A stretch of DNA of 64,000 nt. Origin: an uncultured Nitrospirales bacterium (lineage in GTDB: Bacteria; Hydrogenedentota; Hydrogenedentia; Hydrogenedentales; CAILVY01). Location: assembly GCA_964474205.1 (NCBI GenBank), contig CAYYRW010000037.1:5599-69598 (forward strand), written 5' to 3'. This document shows positions 5,634 to 52,209 of this stretch, piece after piece; positions within the stretch are counted from its first letter, which is position 1; each line of letters begins with the position of its first letter. Below the pieces are notes generated by a model that was given only the letters and a program-made list of their open reading frames with translations, made no database searches and was not told where the DNA came from. A program made the position numbers and the translations under genes.

Positions 5634-6026
5634 ATGGATATGAAAGCGTTGTGTGATCAGGTGAGGCAAACATCGTATGACATTCATGCCTATCACGGGC
5701 ATGGCCACCTTGAAAAAGTGTATGAGAATGCTTTGGCGCATCGTCTGAAGAAAATTGGGTTAAAGGCCGAACAGCAGCATCCAATTGATGTCTATGATGA
5801 GGACGGGACGCTTCTTGGGGAATTTTTTGCTGATCTGTTGGCGGAGGGAGAGCTGGTCATCGAACTCAAAGCAGTTAAAGCATTTGCCCCCGAGCACGAA
5901 GCCCAGATTCTCGGGTATTTGAAATCGTCCCGGAAGGAACACGGGTTACTGATAAACTTCGGTTCGTATAAATTTGAAATCCGCAAATACATCAGGAGTG
6001 TTAATCAAAAAGAAATTTCTTTGTGA
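5634..6026 (+). CDS. GxxExxY family protein (PD-(D/E)XK nuclease superfamily, TIGR04256-like)
   Basis: 130 aa; LLGEFFADLLAEGELVIELKAV ... HEAQILGYLKSSRKEHGLLINFG matches the characteristic C-terminal signature of GxxExxY proteins. Confidence 0.75.
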   Translation: MDMKALCDQVRQTSYDIHAYHGHGHLEKVYENALAHRLKKIGLKAEQQHPIDVYDEDGTLLGEFFADLLAEGELVIELKAVKAFAPEHEAQILGYLKSSRKEHGLLINFGSYKFEIRKYIRSVNQKEISL

Positions 6027-18500: not shown

Positions 18501-19561
18501 CCACGCCGGTGCATCTTCCCTCGGGATGGGTTTCCATCGTGGGCATCGGAGATGCCGTCTGTGGCTTTGCCTGGTTGATATCGTCCGAAGGTGATGCCCT
18601 GTCCTATCAAGGGCCCGTCTCTGGCGGAATTACCATCACGAACCACTCGGATCCCAGCCTGTGCCTCAGCCACGAAGAAGAATTGTGCACGGTCCTTCTT
18701 GATGGGGCTCAGGAAGTGCCCCCGAGTGGAAGCGCCGCCGCCGGCACGGCCACCTTCTCCCTGCTCCCGCCGGATACCGTGCGGCTTACCATCCTCCATA
18801 ACGTGACGGACCCCGTTGCGGCGCACATTCATTTGGGCGCGCCCGGGGTGAATGGTCCCGTGGTCCTCGATTTGGGTACCGCAATCAGCCCCATAGAAAT
18901 GACGATGACGCTGGAACAATATGCCGAATTCTCCACGGGCCACTATGTGAATATTCATAGTATGGTCTTCTCGGAGGGTGATATCCGCGGCGATATCGCT
19001 TGTTCACCGATTGAAGGAGAAGGTGGAGTCGAGGGCGAAGGCACCGTGGAAGGCGAAGGCACCGTGGAAGGCGAAGGCGCCGTGGAAGGCGAAGGCGCTG
19101 TGGAAGGTGAAGGCGCTGTGGAAGGTGAAGGCGCTGTGGAAGGTGAAGGCGCTGTGGAAGGCGAAGGCGCCGTGGAAGGCGAAGGCGCCGTGGAAGGCGA
19201 AGGCGCCGTGGAAGGCGAAGGCGCCGTGGAAGGCGAAGGCGCGGTCGAAGGCGAAGGCGGAGGAGAAGATGGATTCCTGACAGCCGATCAGGATCAGAAC
19301 AACCTGATTAGCCTCTCCGAACTGCTCCGCGTGATCCAGTTCTTCAACTCGAACGGATTCCACTGTGAAGCGGGCACGGAAGACGGGTACGCCCCCGGCC
19401 CCGGCGACATAACGTGCGAGCCGTACGACAGCGACTACAACACCCAGGATTGGCATATCAGCCTCTCTGAACTGCTGCGTGTAATCCAGTTCTTCAATTC
19501 AGGCGGCTATCATTATTGTCCCGGTGAAGCCACCGAAGACGGCTTCTGTCCCGGCCCATAA
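15521..19561 (+). CDS. giant secreted protein: CBM4/9-like N-terminal domain, four tandem ~180-aa repeats, CHRD domain, (EGEGAV)n spacer, C-terminal twin dockerin-like module
   Basis: 1346 aa; signal peptide; LLQNPGFESG (CBM_4_9-like); repeats each with YENFS…WWG…FY(E/N)D..GQPG…GW.SI.G…CGF.W; CHRD-like CTVLLDGAQEVPP…AHIHLGAPGVNGPVVLDL; C-terminus nearly identical to that of 11481-15344. Confidence 0.7.
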   Translation: MLHGNCVPKYFSQPLTGMLVFLGMAFLFVPSAQAECEDNLLQNPGFESGADVNWADTSSSSAEIIQATVAAYEGNYAAWFGNAGPGVTWQLDQTIQIPATVNAHLEFYLRTVSIAAGDIFQVQMDGVTLFSMSDSSPGYASYTLISLDASPYADGQYHLVRFMGTIAGSFLVDNVCIRAQGPLCTVLIDFDDVTAPGLFADATHLTDAYTQKYGVTFEGPGGNDGGVILTSDSWGAVTGESVPNFLAFDTYGNLSDGGTAQGPETVYFRTPVDGVSMKVGTGTGGSATIEAYDNNSMVIATQTVTLGFPMQTVALSVPGIQYLSISFTDSTFLLDDLCIYGDPNAESCSDTAFFSQKPLSPWETWNGYPSNTGNDSIIYENFSNLAKAIQRVRWWGFGVVPGYTDCTPPGSSFEISLCYNNSGLPGYPFYTETVTALMNETGRVFAGLDNFREFRFEAEFANPQNITDGWIMIKGLGDFSTCGFYWLLSSEGDNLSATADEAGTTFNANTYNFSLCLDTGPGFREECAMGSAFSQRPSTPNSIAESAEYFFSSQSLEYTAYENFSGLTWPVKHITWWGIDYSGSFSPCLRTTGDFTITVYNDAAGQPGSSVLQETLTATRVETGRQWLYGANYFPEYRYEAELTGQIDLTEGWISIYGDNEDGGCGFVWASSPVGDKLFYTQQGNNPPVSQTGFSDLSLCLDTYTGPEQFCMDKSQAGQIPDSPLGTGVNSAPSGDDSAKLAYEKFTAHWPITSLRWWGGALGTGCSNYQIAFYEDNGGQPGNVVHQEQVSATQEPTGRTFFSGGLVEYQFDAVLATPLTLRNGWVSIAGINGSGCGFAWLTAPWGDGLSYSQTPPETGPFTDLGRDLALCLGADTGPAQTCAPHVMTGQPSMDPLTPGTNGWFSDELLNYATYENFSGLADSITDLYWWGIDYNYGLCTRTSNTYQITFYEDNAGQPGVIAAQSVVTPKRTLTGRTFSFGDSYPESLFHARLSTPVHLPSGWVSIVGIGDAVCGFAWLISSEGDALSYQGPVSGGITITNHSDPSLCLSHEEELCTVLLDGAQEVPPSGSAAAGTATFSLLPPDTVRLTILHNVTDPVAAHIHLGAPGVNGPVVLDLGTAISPIEMTMTLEQYAEFSTGHYVNIHSMVFSEGDIRGDIACSPIEGEGGVEGEGTVEGEGTVEGEGAVEGEGAVEGEGAVEGEGAVEGEGAVEGEGAVEGEGAVEGEGAVEGEGAVEGEGAVEGEGGGEDGFLTADQDQNNLISLSELLRVIQFFNSNGFHCEAGTEDGYAPGPGDITCEPYDSDYNTQDWHISLSELLRVIQFFNSGGYHYCPGEATEDGFCPGP
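19011..19268 (+). repeat. 18-bp tandem repeats encoding (E-G-E-G-A/T-V)n, ~14 units
   Basis: near-perfect units gaaggcgaaggcgccgtg / gaaggtgaaggcgctgtg. Confidence 0.9.
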
Positions 19562-20657: not shown

Positions 20658-21419
20658 ATGGAATTTTGCATCGAGACCACGGGACTGAGCAAAGCCTACG
20701 AGGCCGTGCGCGCGGTGGACGGCATTGATCTCCGTGTCGAGCGCGGCAGCTTCTACGGATTCCTCGGTCCCAACGGCGCGGGCAAATCCACCACCATCAA
20801 AATGCTCACCGGCATTACCGGCCCCACCAGCGGGCGCGCCCGCATCCTCGGGTTTGAATTAACCCGAAGCCCGCTGCAAATCAAACGGCGCATCGGCGTG
20901 GTGCCGGAGGAATTGTGCCTCTTTGAAAACCTGACGGCCCGGGAATATCTCGCCTTCGTTGGGCGTATGTACCGCCTGCCCCGGCATGTGGCCTGGCGGC
21001 GCAGCGAGGAACTGCTGGACCTGCTGGACCTCGCGAACACCGGGAAAACACTCACGCTCGAATTTTCGCACGGCATGAAGAAAAAACTCTCGTTGGCCGC
21101 GGCGCTCATCCACGATCCGGAGTTGCTCTTTCTCGATGAACCCTTCGAGGGCATTGACGCGCTCGCCTCGCGCACCATCCGCGCCGTGCTCGAACGCCTC
21201 GTGCAACGCGGCGCGACGGTCTTCCTCACGTCGCACATCCTCGAAATCGTGGAACGCCTCTGCACGCACGTCGGCATCATCCACAAAGGGCGGCTGGTGA
21301 AACAGGGCCGGCTGGACGCACTGGCCTCCGGCGGCTCCCTCGAGGATTTGTTTGTGTCCGCCGTGGGCCAGCCGGAAGAGGCCACGGTAAGCCTGTCGTG
21401 GCTGGGGGGCCGCGCCTGA
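20658..21419 (+). CDS. ABC transporter ATP-binding protein (ABC-2 exporter type)
   Basis: Walker A GPNGAGKST, signature SHGMKKKLSLA, Walker B LLFLDEP. Confidence 0.9.
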   Translation: MEFCIETTGLSKAYEAVRAVDGIDLRVERGSFYGFLGPNGAGKSTTIKMLTGITGPTSGRARILGFELTRSPLQIKRRIGVVPEELCLFENLTAREYLAFVGRMYRLPRHVAWRRSEELLDLLDLANTGKTLTLEFSHGMKKKLSLAAALIHDPELLFLDEPFEGIDALASRTIRAVLERLVQRGATVFLTSHILEIVERLCTHVGIIHKGRLVKQGRLDALASGGSLEDLFVSAVGQPEEATVSLSWLGGRA

Positions 21420-23113
21420 TGCTGGGCCAATGTTGGGCAATCGTCCTGCTCAAATTCGCGGTGCTCCGGCACACCTGGTCCACCGGAAGAATCATCTCGA
21501 CCATCGTCATGGGCTTCTTCCTCCTCCTGGGGGTTGTGGCGGCCATCGCCAGCGCGGCGGGCGGTTACTACGCCGGGCGTGTATGGCTGGGCACGCAGGA
21601 ACCGCTCATCGCCCTCGTGGTGCTGGACGGCATCGTGACCGTGTTCCTGTTCATCTGGTTTTGGAGCCTGCTGATTGAAATCCAGCGCGCGGACATCATT
21701 GACTTCAAGCGAATGATGTTCTTTCCCATTTCCCTGCGGCTCGTGTTCTTCCTGAATTTCATCACATCGCTGTTAAGCCCCGCCCTCGTGTTGTTCATTC
21801 CCGGATTGATTGCCCTGTTGTTCGGCATGAGCACCGTTCAAGGCCCGCATGTCCTGTGGGGCGTGCCCCTCTCCCTGGTGTTCTTTCTCATGCTGACCGC
21901 CTGGGCCTATTACGCGCGCGGCATCATGTCCATCCTCATGGAAAACAAGCGCCGCCGCCGCCTCATTCTCATGCTGCTGCCCCTGTGCTTCGCCCTCCTG
22001 CCGCAGGCGCCCAACCTGATTGTACATTCCCTGCGCACCAACAAGGAAGCCAAAGAGGCCATGAAACACGTCTCCGCGGAGCAGGCCGAACAATGGCTGC
22101 ACTACGGCAACATCGCCGTGCCCGTGGGGTGGCTGCCCTACGGCATCTGGAGCCTGCAAAACAACCATCCACAGGCCGCGGGCCTGTGCTGTATCGGCAT
22201 GGGCGGCCTCGCCTTGCTGGGGCTGGGCATGGGGTACCGGTCCACTGTCCGCTACTACCGCGGCGAGACCAATGTCCGCCGCGTTAAAAAATCCGTCCGG
22301 AAAAAGACCGGCGGGAAACCCCTCACCGCGCGGTGGCTCCCCCTCCTCGATGAAGACACCGCCGCCATGACTTGGGCCGCGTACATCAACTACGCCCGCC
22401 ATCCCAACATCCGCATGCTGCTCATCATGCCCCCGATCATGGCCGCCATCATTCTGTTCACCCTCAAAACCGGTATCGCCAAAGAACAAATGGGCGGCAA
22501 TACCACCTGGCTCCCCGCCGCGCTCCTCGTCTGGCCTTACTTCAATTTCTCCATGGTCTTCTTCAATATTTTCGGCACCGACCACGCCGGATTCCGGGGA
22601 CTCCTCCTCCTCCCCGCGCCCCGCCACAAATACATCCTCGCCAAAAACATCGCCCTGTTCCCCTTCGTCGCCGGCATGGGAGTATTCTTCGTCCTCGGCG
22701 GCGGATGGCTCCTCGAAACCCCGCCGCGCATTCTCTACATCTCCCTCGTACAAGTCTTCGAGTTCTTCCTCATCTACTGCCTCATCGGAAACTTCATCTC
22801 CCTCTACTTCCCCTACCGCCTTGGGCGCGACACCATGCGCGCCCAGGGAAACCGCCCCATCCTCCTCCTCATGGGACTCTGCTCCGCCGCCTTCGTCGGA
22901 CTCCTCATGCTCCCCGCCATGTTCTGCCTCGCCCTCGACGACTTCGTCGCCGTCACCTGGGGCTACCGCGGACTCCCCATCGGGCTCATTACCTCCCTCA
23001 TACTCCTCGCCCTCACCGCCCTCGCCTACGCCATGGCCCTCGTCCACGCCGGCGACCTCCTCCTCTCCCGCGAACAACGCATCCTCGCCGCCCTCGTCAA
23101 AGACCGGGAATAG
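21398..23113 (+). CDS. polytopic membrane protein, probable ABC-2 type permease partner
   Basis: ~565 aa, many hydrophobic segments; start at 21398 or ATG 21419 (TGATG overlap with ATPase stop). Confidence 0.55.
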   Translation: MAGGPRLMLGQCWAIVLLKFAVLRHTWSTGRIISTIVMGFFLLLGVVAAIASAAGGYYAGRVWLGTQEPLIALVVLDGIVTVFLFIWFWSLLIEIQRADIIDFKRMMFFPISLRLVFFLNFITSLLSPALVLFIPGLIALLFGMSTVQGPHVLWGVPLSLVFFLMLTAWAYYARGIMSILMENKRRRRLILMLLPLCFALLPQAPNLIVHSLRTNKEAKEAMKHVSAEQAEQWLHYGNIAVPVGWLPYGIWSLQNNHPQAAGLCCIGMGGLALLGLGMGYRSTVRYYRGETNVRRVKKSVRKKTGGKPLTARWLPLLDEDTAAMTWAAYINYARHPNIRMLLIMPPIMAAIILFTLKTGIAKEQMGGNTTWLPAALLVWPYFNFSMVFFNIFGTDHAGFRGLLLLPAPRHKYILAKNIALFPFVAGMGVFFVLGGGWLLETPPRILYISLVQVFEFFLIYCLIGNFISLYFPYRLGRDTMRAQGNRPILLLMGLCSAAFVGLLMLPAMFCLALDDFVAVTWGYRGLPIGLITSLILLALTALAYAMALVHAGDLLLSREQRILAALVKDRE

Positions 23114-40707: not shown

Positions 40708-41235
40708 TCATGCTGTTGCCGGAGGGGAATTGGGAGAACATCCCGTGAGATACCGTTCACAACGCGGTAATCGCGTCAATAGATATTCATTATCACCAAC
40801 GTGGGAAGCACCCGGTTTCACATCCGGCGCGGAGGGAATCTCGGCACCCCGCCGCGCCAAGGGAACGAACAGGAGAACACCCGGCGCTCCGCATAAGACC
40901 CCTTCCGTCTTCAGTTTCAGCGGTTGTTCCGGAAAGGAATCCGTACGTTCGGTTTGCGCCATTAGCCGTTGAAAATCGAGGACATCCACTCGGCCATCCC
41001 CGTTCACATCCGCCCCCCCTGAATCCATCGAGGCCAGCAACGAAACGGCGACGGCCTGCATATCCAAGACATCCACCCGGCTGTCGTTGTTGATGTCGCC
41101 GGTTCGGCAAACCGACACAGAAGCCCCGTAAAGCGCACTAACGCCAAACACTACGGCCACCATAACGCTTATATACGGTTTGTAAAACACGCAGGCAATT
41201 ACCTCTTGGATAAATTTATACCAAATTATACCCAA
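40708..41235 (-). CDS. small secreted protein with dockerin-type I repeat pair
   Basis: DINNDSRVDVLDMQAVAVSLL and DVNGDGRVDVLDFQRLM Ca-binding loop + helix repeats; N-terminal hydrophobic segment (true start probably internal Met/Val near MVAVVFGVSALYG). Confidence 0.5.
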   Translation of the reverse strand: MGIIWYKFIQEVIACVFYKPYISVMVAVVFGVSALYGASVSVCRTGDINNDSRVDVLDMQAVAVSLLASMDSGGADVNGDGRVDVLDFQRLMAQTERTDSFPEQPLKLKTEGVLCGAPGVLLFVPLARRGAEIPSAPDVKPGASHVGDNEYLLTRLPRCERYLTGCSPNSPPATA

Positions 41236-44217: not shown

Positions 44218-47200
44218 TTATTCTTTTCTCTTCTTCCGCGACGCCATGATTAGCGCCAAGGCGCCAGACAGGGTAAGCAGCAGATCACCGGGCGCCACAC
44301 CGGCCAGACTGCCCGGGGCGGCTTTATTCCCCGCACACCCGCAATCGTTGTCCGGTTCCCCCTCGCCTTCCCCCTCGCCTTCCACGGTTCCTTCAGCCTG
44401 CCCTTCTTCCTGGCCTTCGACTTCGCCTTCCACCGGCACCCCTTCCTCCTCGCCCTCGATAACCCCTTCGCCTTCTTGTTGGCCTTCATCGTCTCCTTCA
44501 CCCTCGGGCTGGCCTTCGAGTTGGCCCTCTTGTTCGCCTTCCGGCGGTACCCCCAGGGTGTTGAACACTTCATTGGTTTCAATTGCGGCATTTTGATCGA
44601 AAACAATGGACGCGCTGTTTACTATTCGGGCGGCTTCCGGCGCATCGGCCCTCGGCAGAATCGTAAAGGAAACATGGCCTTCGCCACGGTGCGTAGCGTC
44701 ATTGGGCGGCAGCAACCCCGCCAACGCATCCTCCGGCAATTCACCGGTGTCCGGGTCCAGCGTGCGGAATCTCCATTCCACCTTGCCGTTCACCGAATTC
44801 ATGGTCGCGGTAACGTCCACCCACCATGCCTTGGATACGTCCACCCGGTAATCCGCGATCGTTTCCCGCGTGCTCAGCACACCGGCGTCCGCAGGGACCT
44901 CGACCGAATAGCTCCCCCACTGGATATCCGTCAGCCGGAAGGTCGACCAGTCAAGATACTCGCTTAAATAGTCGGTTACGATGACTTCCTGTGCGGGGGC
45001 GGAGGCCGAGGATTTGTTCTCAAAGAAAATGCTGTAGGTGAGCACTTCTCCGCGCGGCACCCAATGCTCCGCCCCCGTGCCCGGCACACCCGTCTTTTCA
45101 TTCGGGTCATCCGGGAACAATATTTCCGGGTCCCCCAGGTATTCCCAAATGGGATCATCGTGGGGTATCAACATGTTCTTTCCCGCCTTTAATAACGGGT
45201 CAGTCGCCCACGGGTTGCGCGGCACCGGCTTATACCAGTCGGCATCCCGGAGCGAGGCCACATAGTCATCGGTAAGCTTGTCGGCAATGACTTTTGTGGT
45301 GCCCAGCACAAACAGCGTGGCGCCCACCGGCGTCGGCGCGCCAATCGTAAAGGCAATCAATCCGCCGCCCCACAATCCCCAATTAACATCCGCGCGCCAA
45401 TCGTCATAAGGGTCGGGCGTCTTTCGCGCATCGTCTTCGGCAAACGCCGCGGCAATGCCCCCGGTAACCGAGGTAAAGTACCCGGCCGCATTATTCGCCA
45501 CACTGCCATCGGGCGCGAAATTGCCTAAATACCCGATAATGTATTCGCCCAGCGCCTGCACATCCGCCGCTTTAAATTTGGACAAACTCTTGGGCGGATG
45601 ATAATCGCCCTGGGTTCCCTGGCCCGGTGTTGGCGTCAGTGTTTGGTTGGTTTGCGTGTCGGTATGGGTCTGGCCGTTGTAGACGGTTCCCGACCCGTCG
45701 GAGGTTGACCCTCCCTGGCCTCCGGCCTGATAGGGGGTGCCCGTCCCTTGTTTGGAGGAAGACAGCACCTGGCCAAAGGGATCATACTGGTACTCCGCAA
45801 TCACCGCACCCGTGGCATCCGTAAGCTGCACCGTGTTTCCGTCCGCGTCAAATGCATAATACTCGGCGGCCCCGCTGCCATTGATGCGGGCCACAAGGCC
45901 ATACCCAATGACGTTTGAGGCCACCAGATTTCCACTGCCATCGAATTCCGCGATGCCCCCGCCCCAGCCTTCCAGCCCCGGCGCAAACCGCTTCGTTTCG
46001 CCATTATGGGTAATGGACGTGCGCTGGCCAAGCGCGTTGTAGGTGTATTCCCAGACATCGCCCGCCGAAGCTTCGACCCGCACGAGCCGGTTGTCATAAT
46101 TGTACTGATAGTCCGTCGTGCCGGAACCATCCGTACGGGAAGCGCGATTCCCATTCGCATCGTAGGTAAAGGTTGCATCGCCCGCCTGCAGACACTGATT
46201 CAGGACGCCCACGCCATACGTTTCCGGCAATGCGCCCCCGGTGCTGCTCAGCCGGTTCCCGGCCGCATCGTATATAAAGCTCTGCGTGTGGCCATCCGGA
46301 TAGGTAACTTCCGTGAGCCGTCCCGCCGCATCATAATCATACAGCCGGGTTCCATCCACGGTATTCATCGAAATCACGCGTTCCGCGGCATCATAGGCAT
46401 AATCAAACCGTGACTGCACTCCCCCCGCCCCGCTGTAATTGACCATACTCATGATATGCCCCACGGCATCATACGCGTACTCCGTATACGTCCCGTTGCC
46501 CCTGGTTTCGCGCGAAAGGCGCCCGTCCGCATCGTATTCATACCCCGCCAGATCCCCCACGCCTTCCTGTACCAGGCGCATCAATCGGCCCTGGGCATCA
46601 TACTGGTAATTCAACACCACGCCATCACTGCCGGAACGCCGGGTTCGTAATCCTGCATCGTTGTATTCATAGGCAAACCACATTCCCCCGGGATAATCGA
46701 TGCGTACCGGGAAGTTTCGAGCATCATACGTGATCGAAATGGTTCCCGAGGCATCCGTAACGCTGGCAAGCTGCCGCGCGGCGGTATAGGTGCAGGTCAC
46801 TTCGCGCCCGTCCGGATATGCCTTGCGCGTCATTTGTCCGTGGCTATTGAACTCAAAATAAAACGTCTCCCCCTTGCGATTGGTGTACCGCGTGAGCTGG
46901 CCATGGTCATCATAGTTGAAATTCTCATACGTGCCATCCGCAAACGTAGCCCGCTGCAGCCGCCGCTGTTCGTTGTATTCAAATTGCAGCGCATTCCCCT
47001 TGGCATCCACGAGCGCCTTGGGCATCCCAATCCCGGACTTCATTTGCAGGGTGGTTTCATTCCCCAAGGGATCGCGGATCACGCTCTCAGCGATATCCTG
47101 CTGGTGCTCCGATACATGCCCCAGCCCGTCCGTGACCCGCGCAAGATGGCCGTCACTCCAGTCATACTCCAACGTTACAACCGGCCCGTCCGGTTTTTGC

Positions 47201-50200
47201 ACGCGGACCACCCGATTGGTGGCGTCGGGCGAAAGCACCACGGCGGGAGCGGAATCATCGCCAAACGTTATGGAGACCCGGCCATCCTCATCATAGGAAT
47301 ATGCCCGGCGGTTCGCCGTTCCGTCCGAATAATCCGCCGCCAGGCGGCCATAGGCGTCATAATCGAAATGACCCGCCGAACCATCCGGGTGCACCGTGCC
47401 GCGCAATGCGTGGTCCGCAGGGCTTCCGGCATCCCCGTTATAGCTGTATTGAACCACCCGTCCTGCGGCATCCGTCACACTCAGCAAATGCTCGTTCGCC
47501 GTATCATACGCAAAAGTGGTGGTGCGCCCCGCCTGATCCGTGAGTTGTTTGATACGGCCCGCCGTGTTGTACTCCAATTGGAAGCGGTCCCCGCTGGAAT
47601 GTTGCATCGCCACCAAACGGCCTTGATCATACTGCGCCGTGAGACGGTTCCCCCGCACATCGGTCAGGGTGGCCAGTTTGAGGTCGGTGCGAAAGACATA
47701 CTCATTCCCGTTGACTTCCGTCAGATGATAGGCACCGCCCTCTTCCACGAAATGCCCCCGGTCTCCCGCGTTCAAGGCCACATACGCGCCATCGTCCTTT
47801 TTCTGGAAGAATCGTTGCGCGCCGGAACCGTCCTGCAGCGTTACACCGCCATCGTCCGATACTTCGAGGAAAATGTTGAGGGAATGCGTCCAACCATATC
47901 CCAATGGGCCAAGGTTCAGGCGATCTCCCATCTGGCCCCGGTATACCCGGGTAAAAGCCAGCGGCAGGCCTTTTTCCGGGCAATAGGCGTCCACGGCGCG
48001 CGCCAGGCATGGCCGCACGGACAGACCGATAATCTTGCGCATTTCGTACAGGGTGAGCTGGGGGACGGACCAATACAATGCGCCTTGGGAACTCAGATAC
48101 TCCGCATTTTTCCGCAGTTGTGCCACATACTCACCCCAGGTCGTCCCAAAATTCTGTTTCAACAGCGGCCAGATGCGTGTCCAAAGCGCATCCTCGACAT
48201 TCGCCGGACGCATATTCGCCTCGTGCGCATCCCAATCAATCACGGTTTCCGGATCACTCTCGACGCTTACGTCGAAATCCAGTTTTTGATGCGCGTGGCC
48301 ATTGCCCAAGACCTGTATGGGAATGCGCTGCCGCGCCCCAGGTTCACAGGTGGAAACGCCTGTTCCGTTCTCATCCGGGGTCAATCCCAATACTTGGATC
48401 GGGTTTGTGGACCACGGTTCATTTTGCGACAGGCGCATCGGCATGGTATCCCGCGAGGTGATTGTGAACACCGGCGCGGCCTTATCCGCCAACCCGATAT
48501 TCTCAAACCCGAACCACAACGAAAACGGCCGTTTCCCCCGGGCATAGGCGGGGACATCCAGGGTGGTGGTTAATTGCGCCGGCGCACCCGCCACAATCTC
48601 GAACGCCTGCGGCAAGAGCAGTGCTTCGTTGTCGGGCCACACCACGGCCACATTCACGACCTGCGGCGGCAATCCTGTCAAATCCAAGGCGACTCTCAAC
48701 GCGGACAAGTCGAACGAAGACGGCGTAAAGGTGCGCAATACCGCTCCCGCACCGCTGCGCAATTCCACCCGCATCCCGGTTTCAAACCCAAGCCCGGAAA
48801 GGCTCACCGTGGTGCTTCCGGCATTGCCGCCCGTGTGGTGGCTGATATCCGCCAAATACCGGTTCATACTCAGGCATTGCAGGGTAAAATGCCCTTGGTA
48901 GGCCTTTGCCCAATAGGAATAAAACACGCTCAGATACAGGCTGTTTGAACCCGGCGCGGGAATCAGCATTTCCATGGTTCCATCAGATTTCAGCACGCCT
49001 CGCCAATCGTAGTCCACCAACGTGGGGAAACCGCCGCGCCGCCCCACCAGCGTCCAATTCCCGGAGTCACCCGCCGGTGTCATCCGCACCACCACGTTCG
49101 GCGCCGCGCCGATCCGTAGTTTCAGGCGGAAATCGCTGTACTCCAGGGAATACACATCGCTTTCCACACTCTCATCCAAGGCAATATCCCGCGCATGACG
49201 GTTCGCGGGGGGCAATCCCGAGTCGAATACCAGCCCCTTTGAATCGTCATAGCCTGCCAGCAACACTTGGGCGCCGTCCCGCGACAAGTCCAAAGAATCG
49301 CACCCGGAAGCGCCCATGACCGGCCCGAACGCTGAAACCACCGCCCCAGTGAGCATATCCCACACTACCGCCTGGCCATTTTTCAGCCCGGCGAAGACAT
49401 GCCACCCGTCCGGGGCCGCCGCGAGACTTAACACCGGCGAATCCCCGTTCAGGGTTTGCAGCTCCCCGCCTGTTCCCGCATCGTACACCACAATATTCCC
49501 CGTGCTGCACCCCGCCAGAAAACGTTTCCCGTCCGCCGTGAACGCCACGCTGCGCACTTCTCCATACGGATGCGCCGGATTGAACGAATACACCTCATCG
49601 CCCGTCTGGGCATCAAAAATCTTCGCCGTGTTGTTCAGGGCTCCCGTGCCAATCCGCGCGCCGTCCGGGCTGATCGCCACCGACATCACCGCATCCTCAT
49701 TCGCCGTGCAATCGGCGGCCACCGCGCCCGTATTCACATTCCACAACTTGGCGGTTCCATCCTCCGACCCCGTCAATACATGAATGCCATCCGGCGAATA
49801 CACGGCGCCGCGTATGGCCCCATTATGTCCTTCAAATGCCCGCAATTCCGCCCCCGTCGCCACTTCCCATAACTGCACCGTTCCATTGAGTTGCCCGGTC
49901 AATACCGACGCCCCGTCCCGCGAGCATGCCACCGCGGAACCTTGCCAGGTAAGATCCGAAATTTTCCGTTCCGCTACTTCCCCATGCGCATCCCATAACC
50001 ACACATTGTACCCAAACATCGTATATGAACTTACGCCCGCCACCCGGCTCCCATCCGGTGAAAACGCCCCGCGGGACAGCGTCTCGGCAGCTTGCTCCCG
50101 CTGCATCAGCAGCGGATTTGGCGCGGCATCATAACTCACCAGCGCATAGGGATCGTCCGCCCCTGTGCCACAGGCCAAGGCAATGCGCGCCCCATCGGGT

Positions 50201-52209
50201 GACAACGCCCAGCAGCCCACCCTATTTTGGTAATCAAACCGGTTCAACAATGTCCCGGAGGCCACGTCCCATATATAAACATCGTCAAACCCGCCTATCA
50301 GCGCACGGCTGGAATCCCCGGAAAACATTATATCTTCCGACCCATAGAAATACCCAACCCCCGGCGGGTCGAATCGCTGCACTTCCGCCCCCGTCACCGT
50401 GCTGACTATGGCGGCATATTGCTGATCCGGCTGTTGAAGGCACAACGCCCGCGACAAATCCCCATTAAAATCCATCGCTTCCAATCCAGGCAGAGCCAGC
50501 GTGCGAATCAATGCACCGGTCTGGACATTCAAAAATCGAAGCGTGCATGAACGCGTTCCGCCGTAATCCCCCTCCGTATGCACGGTCACAAGCGTCCGGT
50601 TATCGTTCGAGAAATGCATTAACTGCACCGAATCTGTCTGGTCAAGTGCGGGAAGCGCTTCCCCCGTCGTGGTATTCCAAAGCTGGCATACGCCGGTGTT
50701 CGACCACCCTCCCACCCCCACGATGGTCCCATCCGGCGAATACACCGCGGTCTGCGCACGCACGGCATTGTCAAACGTGCGGAGATGCGCCCCCGTTTGC
50801 GCGTTCCATAAATCCACCTGCTTGCCAAAAACCGTGAATACTTTCGTACCATCCGCCGAATAGAGTATTCGCGCGGTGTCCGTGTTATACCCACTGGCAA
50901 TATCCACCGTAAAGGAAGCCCCGGGCGCCCCCGTCTCCGTATTGCATTGAAACACCTGCATTTGCGTTTCACTTTCTTTGTAAACCGCCACCGCCGCCGT
51001 CGTACTATCCGGCGCAAATGCAATATAGACCCCCTCATCCACAATCGGCACCGCCGGATGCCGCGCAAACGAAGCCATGCCAAACACGTCCACAATGGCG
51101 GTATTCGCCAGCAGGCTCCGGTACCCCGAAGTGGTTTCGACAAGGTTGAACGCCGTCACGGACCGCTGTCCGTCCGGTGAAATGGCGCTCACCACATCAC
51201 TAACTGTCTTTTCATGATTTTCCAGCAGGCGATCCGAGAGGGGCAGCGTGCCGTAGTAAATGCGTTGTTGGATGTCCGCGCAGGTATGCCCGTCAAAAAT
51301 AACCTTCGCCCCATCCGGGGTGAAAAGAATCGAGTCCGCGCCATAAAATGTCTTTTCCGCCTGCACCCCTGTCGCCGCATCCCAAATCGTCGTCTTTTGC
51401 ACATCCCACGTCGAGCTATACCCTTGATGATTGTACGTCGAACTCACATACACGTGCGTGCCGTCCGGTGTCATGGCCGCGCTTATCACAGATTTAAACG
51501 CATCATACTCCGCCGGACGATCCGGCGGCGTGATCGTGGCCATCGGTGCGAGGGCCGCCGTGTCCCACACGCGCACCGCACTTTCGCATACGGTGGCAAA
51601 TCGCGCCCCATCGGCACTGAACGATACGTGTTTAACCTCGTGTTTGTCCTCATGCATCAGCGTATTCAACAACACACCCGATGCCGCATCCCAAATCGAA
51701 ATCGTCCCCACAGGGTCCGTATGCACAGACTGTTTGTGATGATTGCACGTAAGTATCTTCTCCCCATTCTCAAAAAACGCCACATCATTCACCCGATCCC
51801 CCACCGTGAATGTGCGGACCACCGATCCCGTGGCCACGTCCCACAGAACCGCCTGGCCCACCTTGGCGCCATCCGATTGTATGGTCTGACCTCCCGTGAG
51901 CACCCGTGCGCCGTCCGGAGAATAGGCAATGGACGTCATGGCCCCCGTCGTGCCCGCAAACACTTTGACGGACGATCCCGTATCACTTCGGATAATTCTC
52001 ACCAATGACGATGCACACGCCACCGCCAAGTTCATTCCGTCCGGGGAAAAGACCACGTCCGCGATCTTCTGCCCACCCAGCACCTGTTTTGGAATTCGTT
52101 GCATATCAAGCGTTTGCGCCTGCGCCAAGCCCATCTCAACCACCACAAGAAGGCAAACGAATACCCTTTGCCCACACTTCATGCACCACATACCGGCACC
52201 TCCTGGCAA
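44218..52209 (-). CDS. giant (2663 aa) secreted beta-propeller (WD40/YVTN-like) + RHS/YD-repeat protein with C-terminal sorting-signal-like tail
   Basis: signal peptide; >15 FSPDG/YSPDG-type propeller blades; long YD-repeat array (YDAAGRL…, YDANGNR…) ending in YQYDPFGQVL core-like motif; then DUF11-like region, (EGEG)n spacer and CGC-motif/TM/KKRKE tail. Confidence 0.8.
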   Translation of the reverse strand: MPGGAGMWCMKCGQRVFVCLLVVVEMGLAQAQTLDMQRIPKQVLGGQKIADVVFSPDGMNLAVACASSLVRIIRSDTGSSVKVFAGTTGAMTSIAYSPDGARVLTGGQTIQSDGAKVGQAVLWDVATGSVVRTFTVGDRVNDVAFFENGEKILTCNHHKQSVHTDPVGTISIWDAASGVLLNTLMHEDKHEVKHVSFSADGARFATVCESAVRVWDTAALAPMATITPPDRPAEYDAFKSVISAAMTPDGTHVYVSSTYNHQGYSSTWDVQKTTIWDAATGVQAEKTFYGADSILFTPDGAKVIFDGHTCADIQQRIYYGTLPLSDRLLENHEKTVSDVVSAISPDGQRSVTAFNLVETTSGYRSLLANTAIVDVFGMASFARHPAVPIVDEGVYIAFAPDSTTAAVAVYKESETQMQVFQCNTETGAPGASFTVDIASGYNTDTARILYSADGTKVFTVFGKQVDLWNAQTGAHLRTFDNAVRAQTAVYSPDGTIVGVGGWSNTGVCQLWNTTTGEALPALDQTDSVQLMHFSNDNRTLVTVHTEGDYGGTRSCTLRFLNVQTGALIRTLALPGLEAMDFNGDLSRALCLQQPDQQYAAIVSTVTGAEVQRFDPPGVGYFYGSEDIMFSGDSSRALIGGFDDVYIWDVASGTLLNRFDYQNRVGCWALSPDGARIALACGTGADDPYALVSYDAAPNPLLMQREQAAETLSRGAFSPDGSRVAGVSSYTMFGYNVWLWDAHGEVAERKISDLTWQGSAVACSRDGASVLTGQLNGTVQLWEVATGAELRAFEGHNGAIRGAVYSPDGIHVLTGSEDGTAKLWNVNTGAVAADCTANEDAVMSVAISPDGARIGTGALNNTAKIFDAQTGDEVYSFNPAHPYGEVRSVAFTADGKRFLAGCSTGNIVVYDAGTGGELQTLNGDSPVLSLAAAPDGWHVFAGLKNGQAVVWDMLTGAVVSAFGPVMGASGCDSLDLSRDGAQVLLAGYDDSKGLVFDSGLPPANRHARDIALDESVESDVYSLEYSDFRLKLRIGAAPNVVVRMTPAGDSGNWTLVGRRGGFPTLVDYDWRGVLKSDGTMEMLIPAPGSNSLYLSVFYSYWAKAYQGHFTLQCLSMNRYLADISHHTGGNAGSTTVSLSGLGFETGMRVELRSGAGAVLRTFTPSSFDLSALRVALDLTGLPPQVVNVAVVWPDNEALLLPQAFEIVAGAPAQLTTTLDVPAYARGKRPFSLWFGFENIGLADKAAPVFTITSRDTMPMRLSQNEPWSTNPIQVLGLTPDENGTGVSTCEPGARQRIPIQVLGNGHAHQKLDFDVSVESDPETVIDWDAHEANMRPANVEDALWTRIWPLLKQNFGTTWGEYVAQLRKNAEYLSSQGALYWSVPQLTLYEMRKIIGLSVRPCLARAVDAYCPEKGLPLAFTRVYRGQMGDRLNLGPLGYGWTHSLNIFLEVSDDGGVTLQDGSGAQRFFQKKDDGAYVALNAGDRGHFVEEGGAYHLTEVNGNEYVFRTDLKLATLTDVRGNRLTAQYDQGRLVAMQHSSGDRFQLEYNTAGRIKQLTDQAGRTTTFAYDTANEHLLSVTDAAGRVVQYSYNGDAGSPADHALRGTVHPDGSAGHFDYDAYGRLAADYSDGTANRRAYSYDEDGRVSITFGDDSAPAVVLSPDATNRVVRVQKPDGPVVTLEYDWSDGHLARVTDGLGHVSEHQQDIAESVIRDPLGNETTLQMKSGIGMPKALVDAKGNALQFEYNEQRRLQRATFADGTYENFNYDDHGQLTRYTNRKGETFYFEFNSHGQMTRKAYPDGREVTCTYTAARQLASVTDASGTISITYDARNFPVRIDYPGGMWFAYEYNDAGLRTRRSGSDGVVLNYQYDAQGRLMRLVQEGVGDLAGYEYDADGRLSRETRGNGTYTEYAYDAVGHIMSMVNYSGAGGVQSRFDYAYDAAERVISMNTVDGTRLYDYDAAGRLTEVTYPDGHTQSFIYDAAGNRLSSTGGALPETYGVGVLNQCLQAGDATFTYDANGNRASRTDGSGTTDYQYNYDNRLVRVEASAGDVWEYTYNALGQRTSITHNGETKRFAPGLEGWGGGIAEFDGSGNLVASNVIGYGLVARINGSGAAEYYAFDADGNTVQLTDATGAVIAEYQYDPFGQVLSSSKQGTGTPYQAGGQGGSTSDGSGTVYNGQTHTDTQTNQTLTPTPGQGTQGDYHPPKSLSKFKAADVQALGEYIIGYLGNFAPDGSVANNAAGYFTSVTGGIAAAFAEDDARKTPDPYDDWRADVNWGLWGGGLIAFTIGAPTPVGATLFVLGTTKVIADKLTDDYVASLRDADWYKPVPRNPWATDPLLKAGKNMLIPHDDPIWEYLGDPEILFPDDPNEKTGVPGTGAEHWVPRGEVLTYSIFFENKSSASAPAQEVIVTDYLSEYLDWSTFRLTDIQWGSYSVEVPADAGVLSTRETIADYRVDVSKAWWVDVTATMNSVNGKVEWRFRTLDPDTGELPEDALAGLLPPNDATHRGEGHVSFTILPRADAPEAARIVNSASIVFDQNAAIETNEVFNTLGVPPEGEQEGQLEGQPEGEGDDEGQQEGEGVIEGEEEGVPVEGEVEGQEEGQAEGTVEGEGEGEGEPDNDCGCAGNKAAPGSLAGVAPGDLLLTLSGALALIMASRKKRKE
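44340..44560 (-). repeat. low-complexity GAAGGC-rich tandem repeats encoding (E-G-E/Q-G)n spacer
   Basis: encodes EGEQEGQLEGQPEGEGDDEGQQEGEGVIEGEEEGVPVEGEVEGQEEGQAEGTVEGEGEGEGE. Confidence 0.8.

What the first reader, a model, noticed from the sequence alone, without database searches (positions are those of the whole stretch)
44218..44355. Cys-motif + hydrophobic helix + basic tail at the C-terminus of the RHS giant: putative sorting signal
Seen in sequence: the protein ends …EPDNDCGCAGNKAAPGSLAGVAPGDLLLTLSGALALIMASRKKRKE. This is a short Cys-containing motif, a single TM-like helix and a Lys/Arg tail.

Established knowledge: this tripartite layout is the hallmark of exosortase/archaeosortase-type (PEP-CTERM) and MYXO-CTERM-like (conserved Cys before the TM) sorting signals.

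Inference: a dedicated sortase-like processing system may anchor this and other proteins. The two neighbouring giants use the dockerin-like module instead.
Basis: partly seen in the sequence, partly recalled or inferred. Interest (0 to 1): 0.5.

Follow-up and report, generated by a model that had tools for sequence, protein, structure and literature searches.

The report
New Cys-type C-terminal sorting tail
The giant RHS surface protein ends in a short cysteine motif, membrane helix and basic tail that recurs on many unrelated secreted proteins of the uncultured phylum Hydrogenedentota, so it is most likely an undescribed protein-sorting or anchoring signal whose processing enzyme is still unknown.

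Summary
The 2657-aa RHS/WD40 protein (44218..52191, minus strand) ends ...EPDNDCGCAGNKAAPGSLAGVAPGDLLLTLSGALALIMASRKKRKE*.

The tail is not a one-off. In about 0.95 Mb of related Hydrogenedentota-like metagenome DNA, and among database fragments, I found 17 further distinct tails with the same layout:
- usually a (GE)n acidic linker;
- one invariant Cys, with a second Cys at -2 in 10 of 18;
- an 11-18 residue spacer;
- [G/S/A]-Asp;
- 12-18 hydrophobic residues;
- a basic end.

All matches lie within 6 residues of the stop codon. The carrier proteins differ widely: RHS, beta-helix, Ig-like, VWA-PKD, TIG and PASTA. Homologous carriers end either in this tail or in a dockerin-like module.

No curated model fits. 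MYXO-CTERM, JDVT-CTERM, PEP-CTERM, GlyGly-CTERM and all Pfam models score below threshold. So this is a new family within the known class of tripartite, Cys-containing sorting signals.

Two gaps remain:
- No sortase-like enzyme was found in the window or next to any member; cleavage, lipidation and surface display are inferred by analogy with MYXO-CTERM and myxosortase.
- Recurrence was shown in relatives, not in this genome.

Leave-one-out support for the window's own tail is weak (10.9 bits).

The parts
44218..52191 (-). Carrier gene: a 2657-aa secreted giant protein. Order of modules: signal peptide, WD40 beta-propellers, a 420-aa shared middle module, RHS/YD repeats, DUF7619, acidic linker, Cys tail.
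   Evidence: Translation. Pfam RHS_repeat 213 bits, WD40 families and DUF7619. NCBIfam YD_repeat. Exact product on record. Orthologue named 'DUF6531 domain-containing protein [Ca. Hydrogenedentes]'.
52114..52191 (-). Predicted N-terminal Sec signal peptide (MWCMKCGQRVFVCLLVVVEMGLAQA/Q).
   Evidence: Read from the sequence. No predictor was run. Equivalent N-termini occur in orthologue L006 and in tail-bearing proteins L025 and L038.
44542..45108 (-). DUF7619-type domain, the last folded domain before the linker.
   Evidence: PF24595 hit. 47% identity to the same domain in P0029/P0063. In other proteins this domain is followed by Dockerin_1, IPTL-like tails and other anchors.
44359..44541 (-). 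Acidic (G/E)-rich low-complexity linker.
   Evidence: Sequence. It varies with indels among orthologues. The same kind of linker precedes most other Cys tails and the dockerin-like modules.
44335..44343 (-). Cys motif C-G-C. The second Cys is the invariant residue of the family.
   Evidence: Alignment A4 has one invariant column, this Cys. A Cys at -2 is present in 10 of 18 tails. The motif is unchanged in the orthologues despite synonymous changes.
44293..44334 (-). Pro/Gly/Ala/Lys-rich spacer (AGNKAAPGSLAGVA).
   Evidence: The distance from Cys to Asp is 17 residues here and 11-18 across the family.
44284..44292 (-). P-G-D: small residue plus Asp at the start of the hydrophobic helix, the second signature of the family.
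   Evidence: Asp in 16 of 18 tails, Glu once, Gln once; preceded by G, S or A in 17 of 18.
44239..44283 (-). Hydrophobic helix LLLTLSGALALIMAS (15 aa).
   Evidence: Mean Kyte-Doolittle hydropathy 2.13 over 15 aa. Family range 12-18 aa.
44221..44238 (-). Basic cluster RKKRKE, predicted to be cytoplasmic.
   Evidence: Sequence. Family members have 2-5 K/R after the helix.
44218..44220 (-). TAA stop codon.

Best explanation
The tail belongs to a previously uncurated family of tripartite C-terminal sorting or anchoring signals used by Candidatus Hydrogenedentota and close relatives.

Family layout: (GE)n acidic linker; invariant Cys, often C-x-C; an 11-18 residue P/G-rich spacer; [G/S/A]-Asp; a 12-18 residue hydrophobic helix; a Lys/Arg cluster; stop.

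Proposed mechanism:
1. The giant protein is exported by Sec through its N-terminal signal peptide (inferred from sequence).
2. The C-terminal helix stops transfer and holds the protein in the inner membrane, with the basic end in the cytoplasm (inferred from the positive-inside rule).
3. A housekeeping intramembrane sorting enzyme encoded elsewhere recognises the Cys/G-D signature and removes the helix and basic end. The Cys probably carries a lipid that becomes the mature anchor. By analogy with the four known Cys-containing signals, a CPBP/Rce1-type 'myxosortase-like' protease is the favoured candidate (inferred by analogy).
4. The mature protein is displayed on the cell surface of this diderm organism (inferred).

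What is shown directly: the module recurs, it is strictly C-terminal, it has a conserved signature, it sits on diverse carriers, it is interchangeable with a dockerin-like ending, and it is under purifying selection.
For: Lineage. Orthologues at 79-86% identity occur in a Hydrogenedentota MAG. Public names are given.

Recurrence. A six-frame scan of C-termini, followed by an iterated HMM, was run on 75 related metagenome loci (about 945 kb unique). It found 8 more distinct members: L013, L025, L031, two in L038, L069 and two in L082. A further 8 are protein fragments P0064-P0071, of which P0068 is annotated Ca. Hydrogenedentes. P0063 is another.

Specificity.
- With the 18-seed HMM, members score at least 28 bits against at most 10.7 bits of noise among 8973 ORF C-termini.
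- Across 1.21 M residues of full ORFs, every match of 24 bits or more ends 0-6 residues from the stop. There were no internal matches, and the reversed-sequence control peaked at 8.8 bits.
- L038a, L082b and L025 were picked up by models that did not contain them.

Signature. One invariant Cys and a near-invariant G-D.

Carriers are unrelated to each other: RHS/WD40/DUF7619; beta-helix/PMP with CarboxypepD_reg; Ig-like/HYR; VWA with PKD; TIG; PASTA.

Module swapping. An RHS paralogue, L064 (34% identity over 1351 aa), and Ig-like paralogues end in the dockerin-like module instead.

Other support.
- Signal peptides are present where N-termini are complete.
- The envelope appears diderm: a FadL-type outer-membrane protein lies just left of the window, and a MacAB-like efflux system is in the window.
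- The tail is under purifying selection.
- For the mechanistic analogy, the MYXO-CTERM Cys is required for MrtX cleavage and surface anchoring (PMC11980579), and all four known Cys-type signals are paired with CPBP proteases (doi 10.1101/2023.06.07.544157).
Against: - No CPBP, exosortase, archaeosortase or rhombosortase gene lies in the 64-kb window, in its 5.5-kb left extension, or next to any family member.
- Only generic candidates turned up in related contigs: a CPBP-like protein (L080; Mrt_core 17.7 bits against a cutoff of 100) and a rhomboid (L086; rhombosortase model 31.8 against 84).
- Recurrence was shown in relatives (67-80% nucleotide identity in shared genes), not in the window's own genome.
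- Sequence similarity among tails is weak. In leave-one-out tests only 8 of 16 were clearly recovered. The window's tail scored 10.9 bits, level with the best sequence then counted as non-family. That sequence, L082b, later proved to be a member.
- A phmmer search of 1.84 billion representative proteins with the window tail found only the orthologue.
- The Cys lies 11-18 residues from the helix, further than in MYXO-CTERM. Cleavage just after the Cys would therefore have to happen outside the membrane core.
- Several members share the CarboxypepD_reg-plus-linker context, so they are not all independent.
Confidence: 0.6

Rival explanations
1. Permanent single-pass membrane anchor. The helix is a stop-transfer sequence that is never cleaved. 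The giant protein stays tethered to the inner membrane, and the juxtamembrane Cys and Asp serve some other purpose, such as a disulfide, metal binding or helix positioning.
For: No processing enzyme was found anywhere in the sampled DNA. The Cys is 11-18 residues from the helix, an awkward distance for an intramembrane protease that cuts next to the Cys. Similarity between tails is low.
Against: A plain anchor needs only hydrophobicity. Here an invariant Cys and a G-D recur at a fixed position on unrelated carriers. The hydrophobic stretches are short, 12-18 aa. Homologous carriers alternatively end in a dockerin-like module that has no membrane segment, which points to an extracellular destination. 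In a diderm, that destination cannot be reached with an intact inner-membrane anchor. The carrier domains are adhesin-like: Ig-like, PKD, VWA and beta-helix.
Confidence: 0.23
2. Exosortase- or archaeosortase-type signal. The P-G-D immediately before the helix stands in for P-E-P or P-G-F and is cut by an exosortase-family transpeptidase. The upstream Cys motif is a separate feature.
For: The window tail aligns from P-G-D onward to PEP-CTERM (TIGR02595) at 10.7 bits. The L013 tail weakly matches the PEP-CTERM ends of two PEP-CTERM protein families, E 0.03-0.07. Pfam PEP-CTERM is hit by 2 of 16 tails, best E 0.15. A polyprenyl-phosphate sugar transferase (Bac_transf) lies 3.6 kb away in the window. 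From my own knowledge, not tested here, exopolysaccharide loci often accompany exosortase systems.
Against: All these hits fall below the cutoff (16 bits for TIGR02595). Pro before G-D is present in only about 5 of 18 tails. The invariant residue is the Cys, not the P-x-P positions. No exosortase was found. JDVT-CTERM, a Cys-type model, gives equally weak hits: 2 of 16, E 0.018.
Confidence: 0.12
3. Chance resemblance or mis-annotated ORF end. The C-terminus simply happens to be hydrophobic and basic.
For: Only one such tail occurs in the window. The single-sequence database searches found nothing beyond the orthologue.
Against: The tail is conserved in three orthologues with an excess of synonymous changes. 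Eighteen distinct tails share the signature, and all are strictly C-terminal.
Confidence: 0.02

Closest known systems
MYXO-CTERM (NCBIfam TIGR03901.2), processed by the myxosortases MrtX, MrtC and MrtP (CPBP/Rce1-type intramembrane proteases)
   Same: Both are tripartite: a signature with an invariant Cys and often a second Cys two residues away (GCGC there, C-x-C here), then a helix, then a basic cluster. Both sit at the extreme C-terminus of many different secreted surface proteins per genome, and in neither case is the enzyme expected to be adjacent (doi 10.1101/2023.06.07.544157; PMC11980579).
   Different: The HMM does not match: there is no hit for the window tail, and 1 of 16 tails matches at E 0.57. 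Here the Cys is separated from the helix by 11-18 residues containing Pro and charged residues, and a near-invariant G-D marks the start of the helix. The lineage is Hydrogenedentota, not Myxococcota or Bradymonadales. No myxosortase has been identified.
JDVT-CTERM (NF033191), processed by MrtJ
   Same: Both have an invariant Cys plus a conserved Asp downstream, near or in the helix, with a Leu-rich helix. It is the NCBIfam model hit by the most members, tied with LPXTG_anchor (2 of 16, best E 0.018).
   Different: JDVT-CTERM has a single Cys, a D-P exactly 9 residues after it, about one client per genome and an adjacent MrtJ gene. Here there is often a second Cys, a G-D sits 11-18 residues after the Cys, contigs carry several clients (L038, L082), and no CPBP gene is adjacent.
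PEP-CTERM (TIGR02595 / PF07589), processed by exosortase
   Same: Both have a short motif ending in an acidic residue or Pro immediately before a short Gly/Leu-rich helix and a basic cluster, carried by many client proteins. The helix part gives weak similarity (10.7 bits).
   Different: There is no P-E-P motif. The score is below the 16-bit cutoff. The invariant Cys has no PEP-CTERM counterpart. No exosortase was found.
Dockerin-like C-terminal module of the neighbouring giants (11481..15344 and 15521..19561)
   Same: It occupies the same position, after a (GE)n linker at the C-terminus of homologous giant carriers in the same lineage. It is presumably an alternative way to attach proteins to the cell surface.
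   Different: It is a soluble tandem EF-hand-like module of about 95 aa with no membrane segment, and it is about ten times more frequent in the loci sampled. That sample is biased, because the loci were fetched using this module. It is not covered by Pfam or NCBIfam either.

Membership tests
Generic class: tripartite C-terminal protein-sorting signals (signature motif, TM helix, basic cluster) | Signature motif, hydrophobic helix and Lys/Arg cluster at the extreme C-terminus | tested here: met
   Sequence. All family matches end 0-6 residues from the stop codon.
Generic class: tripartite C-terminal protein-sorting signals (signature motif, TM helix, basic cluster) | The same short domain is shared by proteins with no other homology, several per genome | tested here: met
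   Eighteen distinct tails on RHS, beta-helix, Ig-like, VWA/PKD, TIG and PASTA carriers. Contigs L038 and L082 carry two each. This was shown in related contigs only; the window's own genome could not be scanned.
Generic class: tripartite C-terminal protein-sorting signals (signature motif, TM helix, basic cluster) | The carrier has an N-terminal signal peptide | tested here: met
   Judged by eye from the N-termini of the window protein, L006, L025 and L038b. No predictor was run.
Generic class: tripartite C-terminal protein-sorting signals (signature motif, TM helix, basic cluster) | A cognate sorting enzyme is co-distributed with the signal | not testable with these tools
   No whole genomes were accessible. 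None was found in the window or near members.
MYXO-CTERM (TIGR03901.2) | HMM score at or above the curated cutoff | tested here: not met
   No hit for the window tail at E up to 10. One of 16 tails matches at E 0.57.
MYXO-CTERM (TIGR03901.2) | Invariant Cys in the signature, frequently a second nearby Cys | tested here: met
   Alignment A4 has one invariant Cys. A Cys at -2 occurs in 10 of 18 tails.
MYXO-CTERM (TIGR03901.2) | Restricted to Myxococcota and Bradymonadales, with MrtX, MrtC or MrtP present | tested here: not met
   The lineage is Ca. Hydrogenedentota. The only CPBP seen, in a related contig, scores 17.7 bits on Mrt_core against a cutoff of 100.
PEP-CTERM (TIGR02595 / PF07589) | P-E-P motif and HMM score at or above the cutoff | tested here: not met
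   The motif here is P-G-D. TIGR02595 scores 10.7 bits against a cutoff of 16. PF07589 is hit by 2 of 16 tails, best E 0.15.
PEP-CTERM (TIGR02595 / PF07589) | An exosortase (EpsH family) is encoded in the genome | not testable with these tools
   None appeared among the window genes or the roughly 30 polytopic membrane ORFs scanned. The whole genome was not available.
JDVT-CTERM (NF033191) | Single Cys, D-P nine residues downstream, adjacent MrtJ gene, about one client per genome | tested here: not met
   Two of 16 tails give weak hits (E at best 0.018), and the window tail is not one of them. Here G-D lies 11-18 residues after the Cys, the neighbours are an hcp/Rrf2 pair and a radical SAM gene, and contigs carry several clients.
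GlyGly-CTERM (TIGR03501) / rhombosortase | Gly-Gly signature and HMM match, with a rhombosortase present | tested here: not met
   One of 16 tails matches at E 0.0095; the window tail has no hit. The one rhomboid found in a related contig scores 31.8 bits on the rhombosortase model against a cutoff of 84.
RHS/YD-repeat proteins (the carrier) | Multiple RHS/YD repeats | tested here: met
   PF05593 scores 213 bits with 7 stretches. TIGR01643 scores 139 bits with 13 stretches.

The most novel reading that the evidence does not exclude
Hydrogenedentota have their own, so far undescribed protein-sorting system. Its signal is Cys-X(11-18)-G-D-helix-basic, and its machinery is not a simple copy of myxosortase. 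One possibility is a bacterial CAAX-like pathway: the Cys is lipidated, the chain is cleaved, and the new C-terminus is carboxyl-methylated. A divergent Lgt-like gene next to an ICMT-like gene in related contig L023 hints at this. The system would work in parallel with a second, equally uncharacterised anchoring system based on the dockerin-like module.
Probability: 0.2. Interest if true: 0.7.

Novelty: new variant of a known kind. Interest (0 to 1): 0.5.

Why it matters
C-terminal sorting signals determine which proteins a bacterium displays on its surface. Each newly recognised signal has so far led to a dedicated processing enzyme: sortase, exosortase, archaeosortase, rhombosortase and, most recently, myxosortase.

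Hydrogenedentota are an uncultured phylum, and I found no paper in the searched library that links them to C-terminal sorting signals or dockerins. A defined signal gives four practical things:
- an HMM that labels a whole class of their giant surface proteins;
- a phylogenetic profile that can be used to find the cognate enzyme;
- a fifth Cys-containing signal to test the proposed general pairing of such signals with CPBP/Rce1-type proteases;
- a case where the same carrier families alternate between two anchoring modules (Cys tail or dockerin-like), which is useful for studying how surface display evolves.

It would not change any concept. It extends a known class.

Tried and rejected
- Tail-only homologous-protein search: no candidates. 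This is not informative, because the word index seems blind to long proteins. The 330-aa query did not return even the query protein itself, and all 57 hits were 569 aa or shorter.
- phmmer of the 46-aa tail against 1.84 billion representatives: only orthologue P0058 and a spurious repeat protein, P0059. Divergent short tails cannot reach significance in a library of that size.
- NCBIfam and Pfam scans of the tails: only scattered sub-threshold hits to many different sorting-signal models.
- Search for a sorting enzyme. I ran Pfam or NCBIfam on nearly all sizeable window genes and about 30 polytopic membrane ORFs from the related loci. I also ran a regex for the CPBP motifs EExxxR/FxxxH/HxxxN and looked at the contexts of P0064 and P0067. 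This gave only a generic CPBP-like protein next to an ABC-2 transporter (L080), a generic rhomboid (L086), YhhN, LysE, DUF554 and similar. None is linked to a tail gene.
- Extending the window: only the left side could be recovered, and it held no candidate. The look-up for the right-end protein failed.
- P0029 first looked like an independent short protein. It is in fact the C-terminal part of a 1981-aa protein (P0063), cut off by a TAG where P0063 has Trp.
- The first leave-one-out runs appeared to show 'non-family' sequences scoring as well as members. Two of those sequences (L082:14392-14679 and L025:10517-14509) turned out to be true members.
- I considered the RHS C-terminal region as a polymorphic toxin. 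No RHS-associated core domain or toxin domain was detected, and I did not pursue it.
Full report
OBSERVATION

The ORF 44218..52209 on the minus strand translates to a giant protein ending ...GEGEGEGEPDNDCGCAGNKAAPGSLAGVAPGDLLLTLSGALALIMASRKKRKE*. The product that starts at the Met at 52191 (2657 aa) is on record verbatim in public assemblies.

From N- to C-terminus the protein has:
- a signal-peptide-like start;
- WD40 propellers;
- a 420-aa middle module;
- RHS/YD repeats (PF05593 213 bits; TIGR01643 139 bits);
- a DUF7619 domain;
- a roughly 60-residue Gly/Glu linker;
- the tail.

In the window it is the only real ORF whose C-terminus combines a hydrophobic helix with a basic end.

LINEAGE AND CONSERVATION

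A genome-collection scan found two orthologous loci with 85% identity over the C-terminal 330 aa. One is in a Candidatus Hydrogenedentota MAG. The other is binned as Nitrospirales, which is probably a mis-binning. Public names for the orthologue cluster are 'DUF6531 domain-containing protein [Candidatus Hydrogenedentes]'.

In these orthologues the acidic linker varies with indels while the tail is almost fixed. At codon level, the 46 tail codons differ by 19-22 synonymous against 5-9 non-synonymous changes per pair. The stretch DCGCAGNKAAPGS never changes. The tail is therefore translated and under purifying selection.

IS THE TAIL UNIQUE?

Single-sequence searches were uninformative. The word-indexed search returned no candidates. 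That index evidently misses long proteins, because a 330-aa query did not return even the query protein. A full phmmer search of 1.84 billion representatives returned only the orthologue and one spurious repeat protein.

The 330-aa search did reveal P0029. This is the C-terminal part of a 1981-aa Hydrogenedentota protein, P0063 (beta-helix, DUF7619, PKD and PASTA domains, no RHS). It ends ...SLCGCGPARRGKTGFTSDLVLLCLLVTALSLSGPSKNIKG.

To sample related genomes, I used the dockerin-like C-terminal module of the two neighbouring giants as a probe against JGI metagenomes. It has 450 relatives there. Seventy-five loci were fetched, 1.05 Mb in total and about 945 kb non-redundant. They share 67-80% nucleotide identity with the window in common genes, and their GC content ranges from 37 to 66%.

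A six-frame scan of ORF C-termini, followed by an iterated HMM, found eight further distinct members in these loci:
- L013: DDCGCNKNKRNTLPAPGDLFLAGLGLAVLFVSSALYRRED
- L025: TRCNGGAGTISTGFPKPDAGDALLLIVMAAVLLCMRNIR...
- L031: PQCACAAGTYHPGGPAQGLGGDFLITMLALLTLLIAAKKRDEE...
- L038a: DDCHCSNPKKALPDPGEIFLGALSVMVLMLASTKLRIKE
- L038b: PDCHCGKSEPSLPTGDQAFMVALALVTLLAFSRRGKSG
- L069: FMGCGPGAAASGGRFGDMLVAGMMMAALALALRRKRGRAD
- L082a: IISCGITNTPDSPYFSDYIVAGLLLSLLLIESYPKR...
- L082b: GGCGCGGGKDMPSFDGFMKYLLDIIFVGLLVSLMSGMKKQSKQ

A profile search with four C-terminal regions added eight more fragments, P0064-P0071. One of them is annotated Ca. Hydrogenedentes.

THE FAMILY SIGNATURE

Features of the 18 distinct tails:
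- One Cys is invariant.
- A second Cys lies at -2 in 10 tails; one more has CCGGCC.
- An acidic residue sits 11-18 residues downstream, directly before the hydrophobic stretch. It is Asp in 16 tails, Glu in one and Gln in one, and it is preceded by G, S or A in 17.
- The hydrophobic stretch is 12-18 residues long.
- It is followed by 2-5 Lys/Arg.
- Most tails follow a (GE)n linker.

With the 18-seed HMM, members score at least 28 bits and everything else at most 10.7 bits among 8973 ORF C-termini. Searched against full ORFs (1.21 million residues), every match of 24 bits or more ends 0-6 residues from the stop codon. There are no internal matches, and reversed sequences peak at 8.8 bits.

Caveats:
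- The seeds match their own model by construction.
- In leave-one-out tests only 8 of 16 tails were clearly recovered. The window's own tail, which has one of the longest spacers, reached only 10.9 bits.
- Three members (L038a, L082b, L025) were found by models that did not include them.
- Several members share the CarboxypepD_reg-plus-linker context and are paralogues of one another.

CARRIERS AND MODULE SWAPPING

The carriers are diverse:
- RHS/WD40/DUF7619 (the window protein)
- beta-helix/PMP repeats with CarboxypepD_reg (L038b)
- Ig-like/HYR (L013)
- VWA with PKD (L025)
- IPT/TIG (L069)
- PASTA (L082a, P0063)

The tail follows a linker, a PASTA, a PKD or a TIG domain.

Homologous carriers use either ending. 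An RHS paralogue, L064 (34% identity over 1351 aa), and several Ig-like paralogues end in the dockerin-like module. In other lineages DUF7619 is followed by Dockerin_1, IPTL-CTERM-like tails or other anchors. The position occupied by the tail is therefore an 'anchor slot'.

Where N-termini are complete they look like Sec signal peptides. A FadL-type outer-membrane protein lies just left of the window in the same organism, and a MacAB-like efflux system is in the window. Both indicate a diderm envelope.

COMPARISON WITH KNOWN FAMILIES

NCBIfam release 20 and Pfam give no family for the tails. The window tail has no hit at E up to 10 when scanned with some upstream linker. When trimmed, it scores 10.7 bits on PEP-CTERM against a cutoff of 16.

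Across 16 tails the hits are scattered and below threshold:
- JDVT-CTERM: 2 tails, best E 0.018
- LPXTG anchor: 2 tails
- GlyGly-CTERM, CGP-CTERM, IPTL-CTERM and MYXO-CTERM (E 0.57): 1 tail each
- Pfam PEP-CTERM: 2 tails, best E 0.15

The literature defines four Cys-containing tripartite signals: MYXO-, JDVT-, Synerg- and CGP-CTERM. It assigns each to a CPBP/Rce1-type intramembrane protease (doi 10.1101/2023.06.07.544157). For MYXO-CTERM, MrtX has been shown experimentally to cleave in a Cys-dependent way and to be needed for surface anchoring. [quoted passage not shown]

The present tail shares the class features, including the frequent double Cys of MYXO-CTERM and a conserved Asp as in JDVT-CTERM. 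It differs in the long Pro/Gly-rich spacer, the G-D at the start of the helix, the lineage and the HMM results. It is a new family within a known class. No paper in the searched library connects Hydrogenedentota with sorting signals.

THE ENZYME

No enzyme was found. The window genes are an hcp/Rrf2 pair upstream; a convergent radical-SAM/DUF2344 gene downstream; a small dockerin protein; a Bac_transf sugar transferase; a membrane sulfatase-family protein; and MacAB, MutS, LysE, DUF554, GH20 and others. None is a CPBP, exosortase or rhomboid.

Among 59 non-redundant polytopic ORFs in all the held DNA, about 30 were scanned. These gave a generic rhomboid (L086; rhombosortase model 31.8 bits against a cutoff of 84). 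A regex-detected CPBP-like protein lies beside an ABC-2 transporter (L080; MrtJ 23 bits, Mrt_core 17.7 bits, both far below cutoff). There is also a row of radical-SAM, divergent Lgt-like and ICMT-like genes (L023). None is adjacent to a tail gene, and the contexts of P0064 and P0067 show nothing either.

For a housekeeping enzyme with many clients, non-adjacency is expected (doi 10.1101/2023.06.07.544157). Even so, this half of the hypothesis is untested.

VERDICT

The tail is best explained as a lineage-specific, previously uncurated Cys-type C-terminal sorting or anchoring signal (confidence about 0.6).

The main rival is an uncleaved membrane anchor with a conserved juxtamembrane motif (about 0.23). 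An exosortase-type reading of P-G-D comes next (about 0.12).

Novelty: a new variant of a known kind. Interest is moderate. It is a useful, testable addition for an uncultured phylum, not a conceptual surprise.

Noticed in passing
window 15057..15341 (+) and 19274..19558 (+); loci L013-L087: Both neighbouring giants end, after an (EG)n linker, in a tandem EF-hand/dockerin-like module (D.D.N..ISLSELLRVIQFFNSGG[YF]H.C..EDG[YF].PG, twice). It has no Pfam or NCBIfam match. It has 450 relatives in JGI metagenomes, and 87 of 1035 large ORFs in the fetched loci end this way. It looks like a second uncharacterised surface-anchoring module of this lineage.
   Followed up: partly
L023:8522..10785 (-): Three genes lie in a row in a related contig: a radical-SAM-like gene, a divergent Lgt-like gene (prolipoprotein diacylglyceryl transferase family, 48 bits against a cutoff of 334) and an ICMT-like gene (isoprenylcysteine carboxyl methyltransferase family). 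This is the chemistry of Cys lipidation and C-terminal Cys methylation. Any link to the Cys tails is speculative.
   Followed up: partly
L080:4883..5692 (-): A CPBP/Rce1-like intramembrane protease (motifs EELIYR, FSIVH, HTVRN) lies next to ABC-2 transporter genes in a related high-GC contig. It scores below cutoff for MrtJ (23 bits) and Mrt_core (17.7 bits). It is only a lead for the sorting enzyme.
   Followed up: partly
L003 and L004, position 5933..5935: An in-frame TAG splits the P0063-type giant in two Logan assemblies. The NCBI MAG protein HOC69996.1 has Trp at this position (GFLVV*SQDKDD against GFLVVWSQDKDD). This is a nonsense polymorphism or a pseudogene.
   Followed up: partly
window 44542..45108 (-); proteins P0001-P0057: In homologues, DUF7619 is followed directly by many different C-terminal endings: Dockerin_1, IPTL-CTERM-like tails (VPTLTEWG...), short 'YLPLIRR/K' ends, and T9SS-like domains. 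It seems to be a common last domain before an anchor.
   Followed up: no
window 45109..45630 (-), approximately: After the last YD repeat (YQYDPFGQVLSS) there is no detectable RHS-associated core or toxin domain. About 170 residues follow, including a hydrophobic stretch (WGLWGGGLIAFTIGAPTPVGATLFVLG), before DUF7619. This RHS protein does not look like a classical polymorphic toxin.
   Followed up: no
window 21398..23113 (+): A 12-TM protein with no Pfam or NCBIfam family lies directly downstream of an ABC ATPase-like gene (20658..21419).
   Followed up: partly
L005 (CAYXPO010000235.1): This contig encodes an orthologue of the Hydrogenedentota RHS protein that is 85-86% identical, yet it is binned as 'uncultured Nitrospirales'. 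This is probably a binning error.
   Followed up: no
window 40708..41235 (-): A small (~160 aa) protein consists of little more than a signal-anchor-like N-terminus and a canonical type I dockerin (PF00404, 37.5 bits). It lies between the sugar transferase and the radical SAM gene.
   Followed up: no
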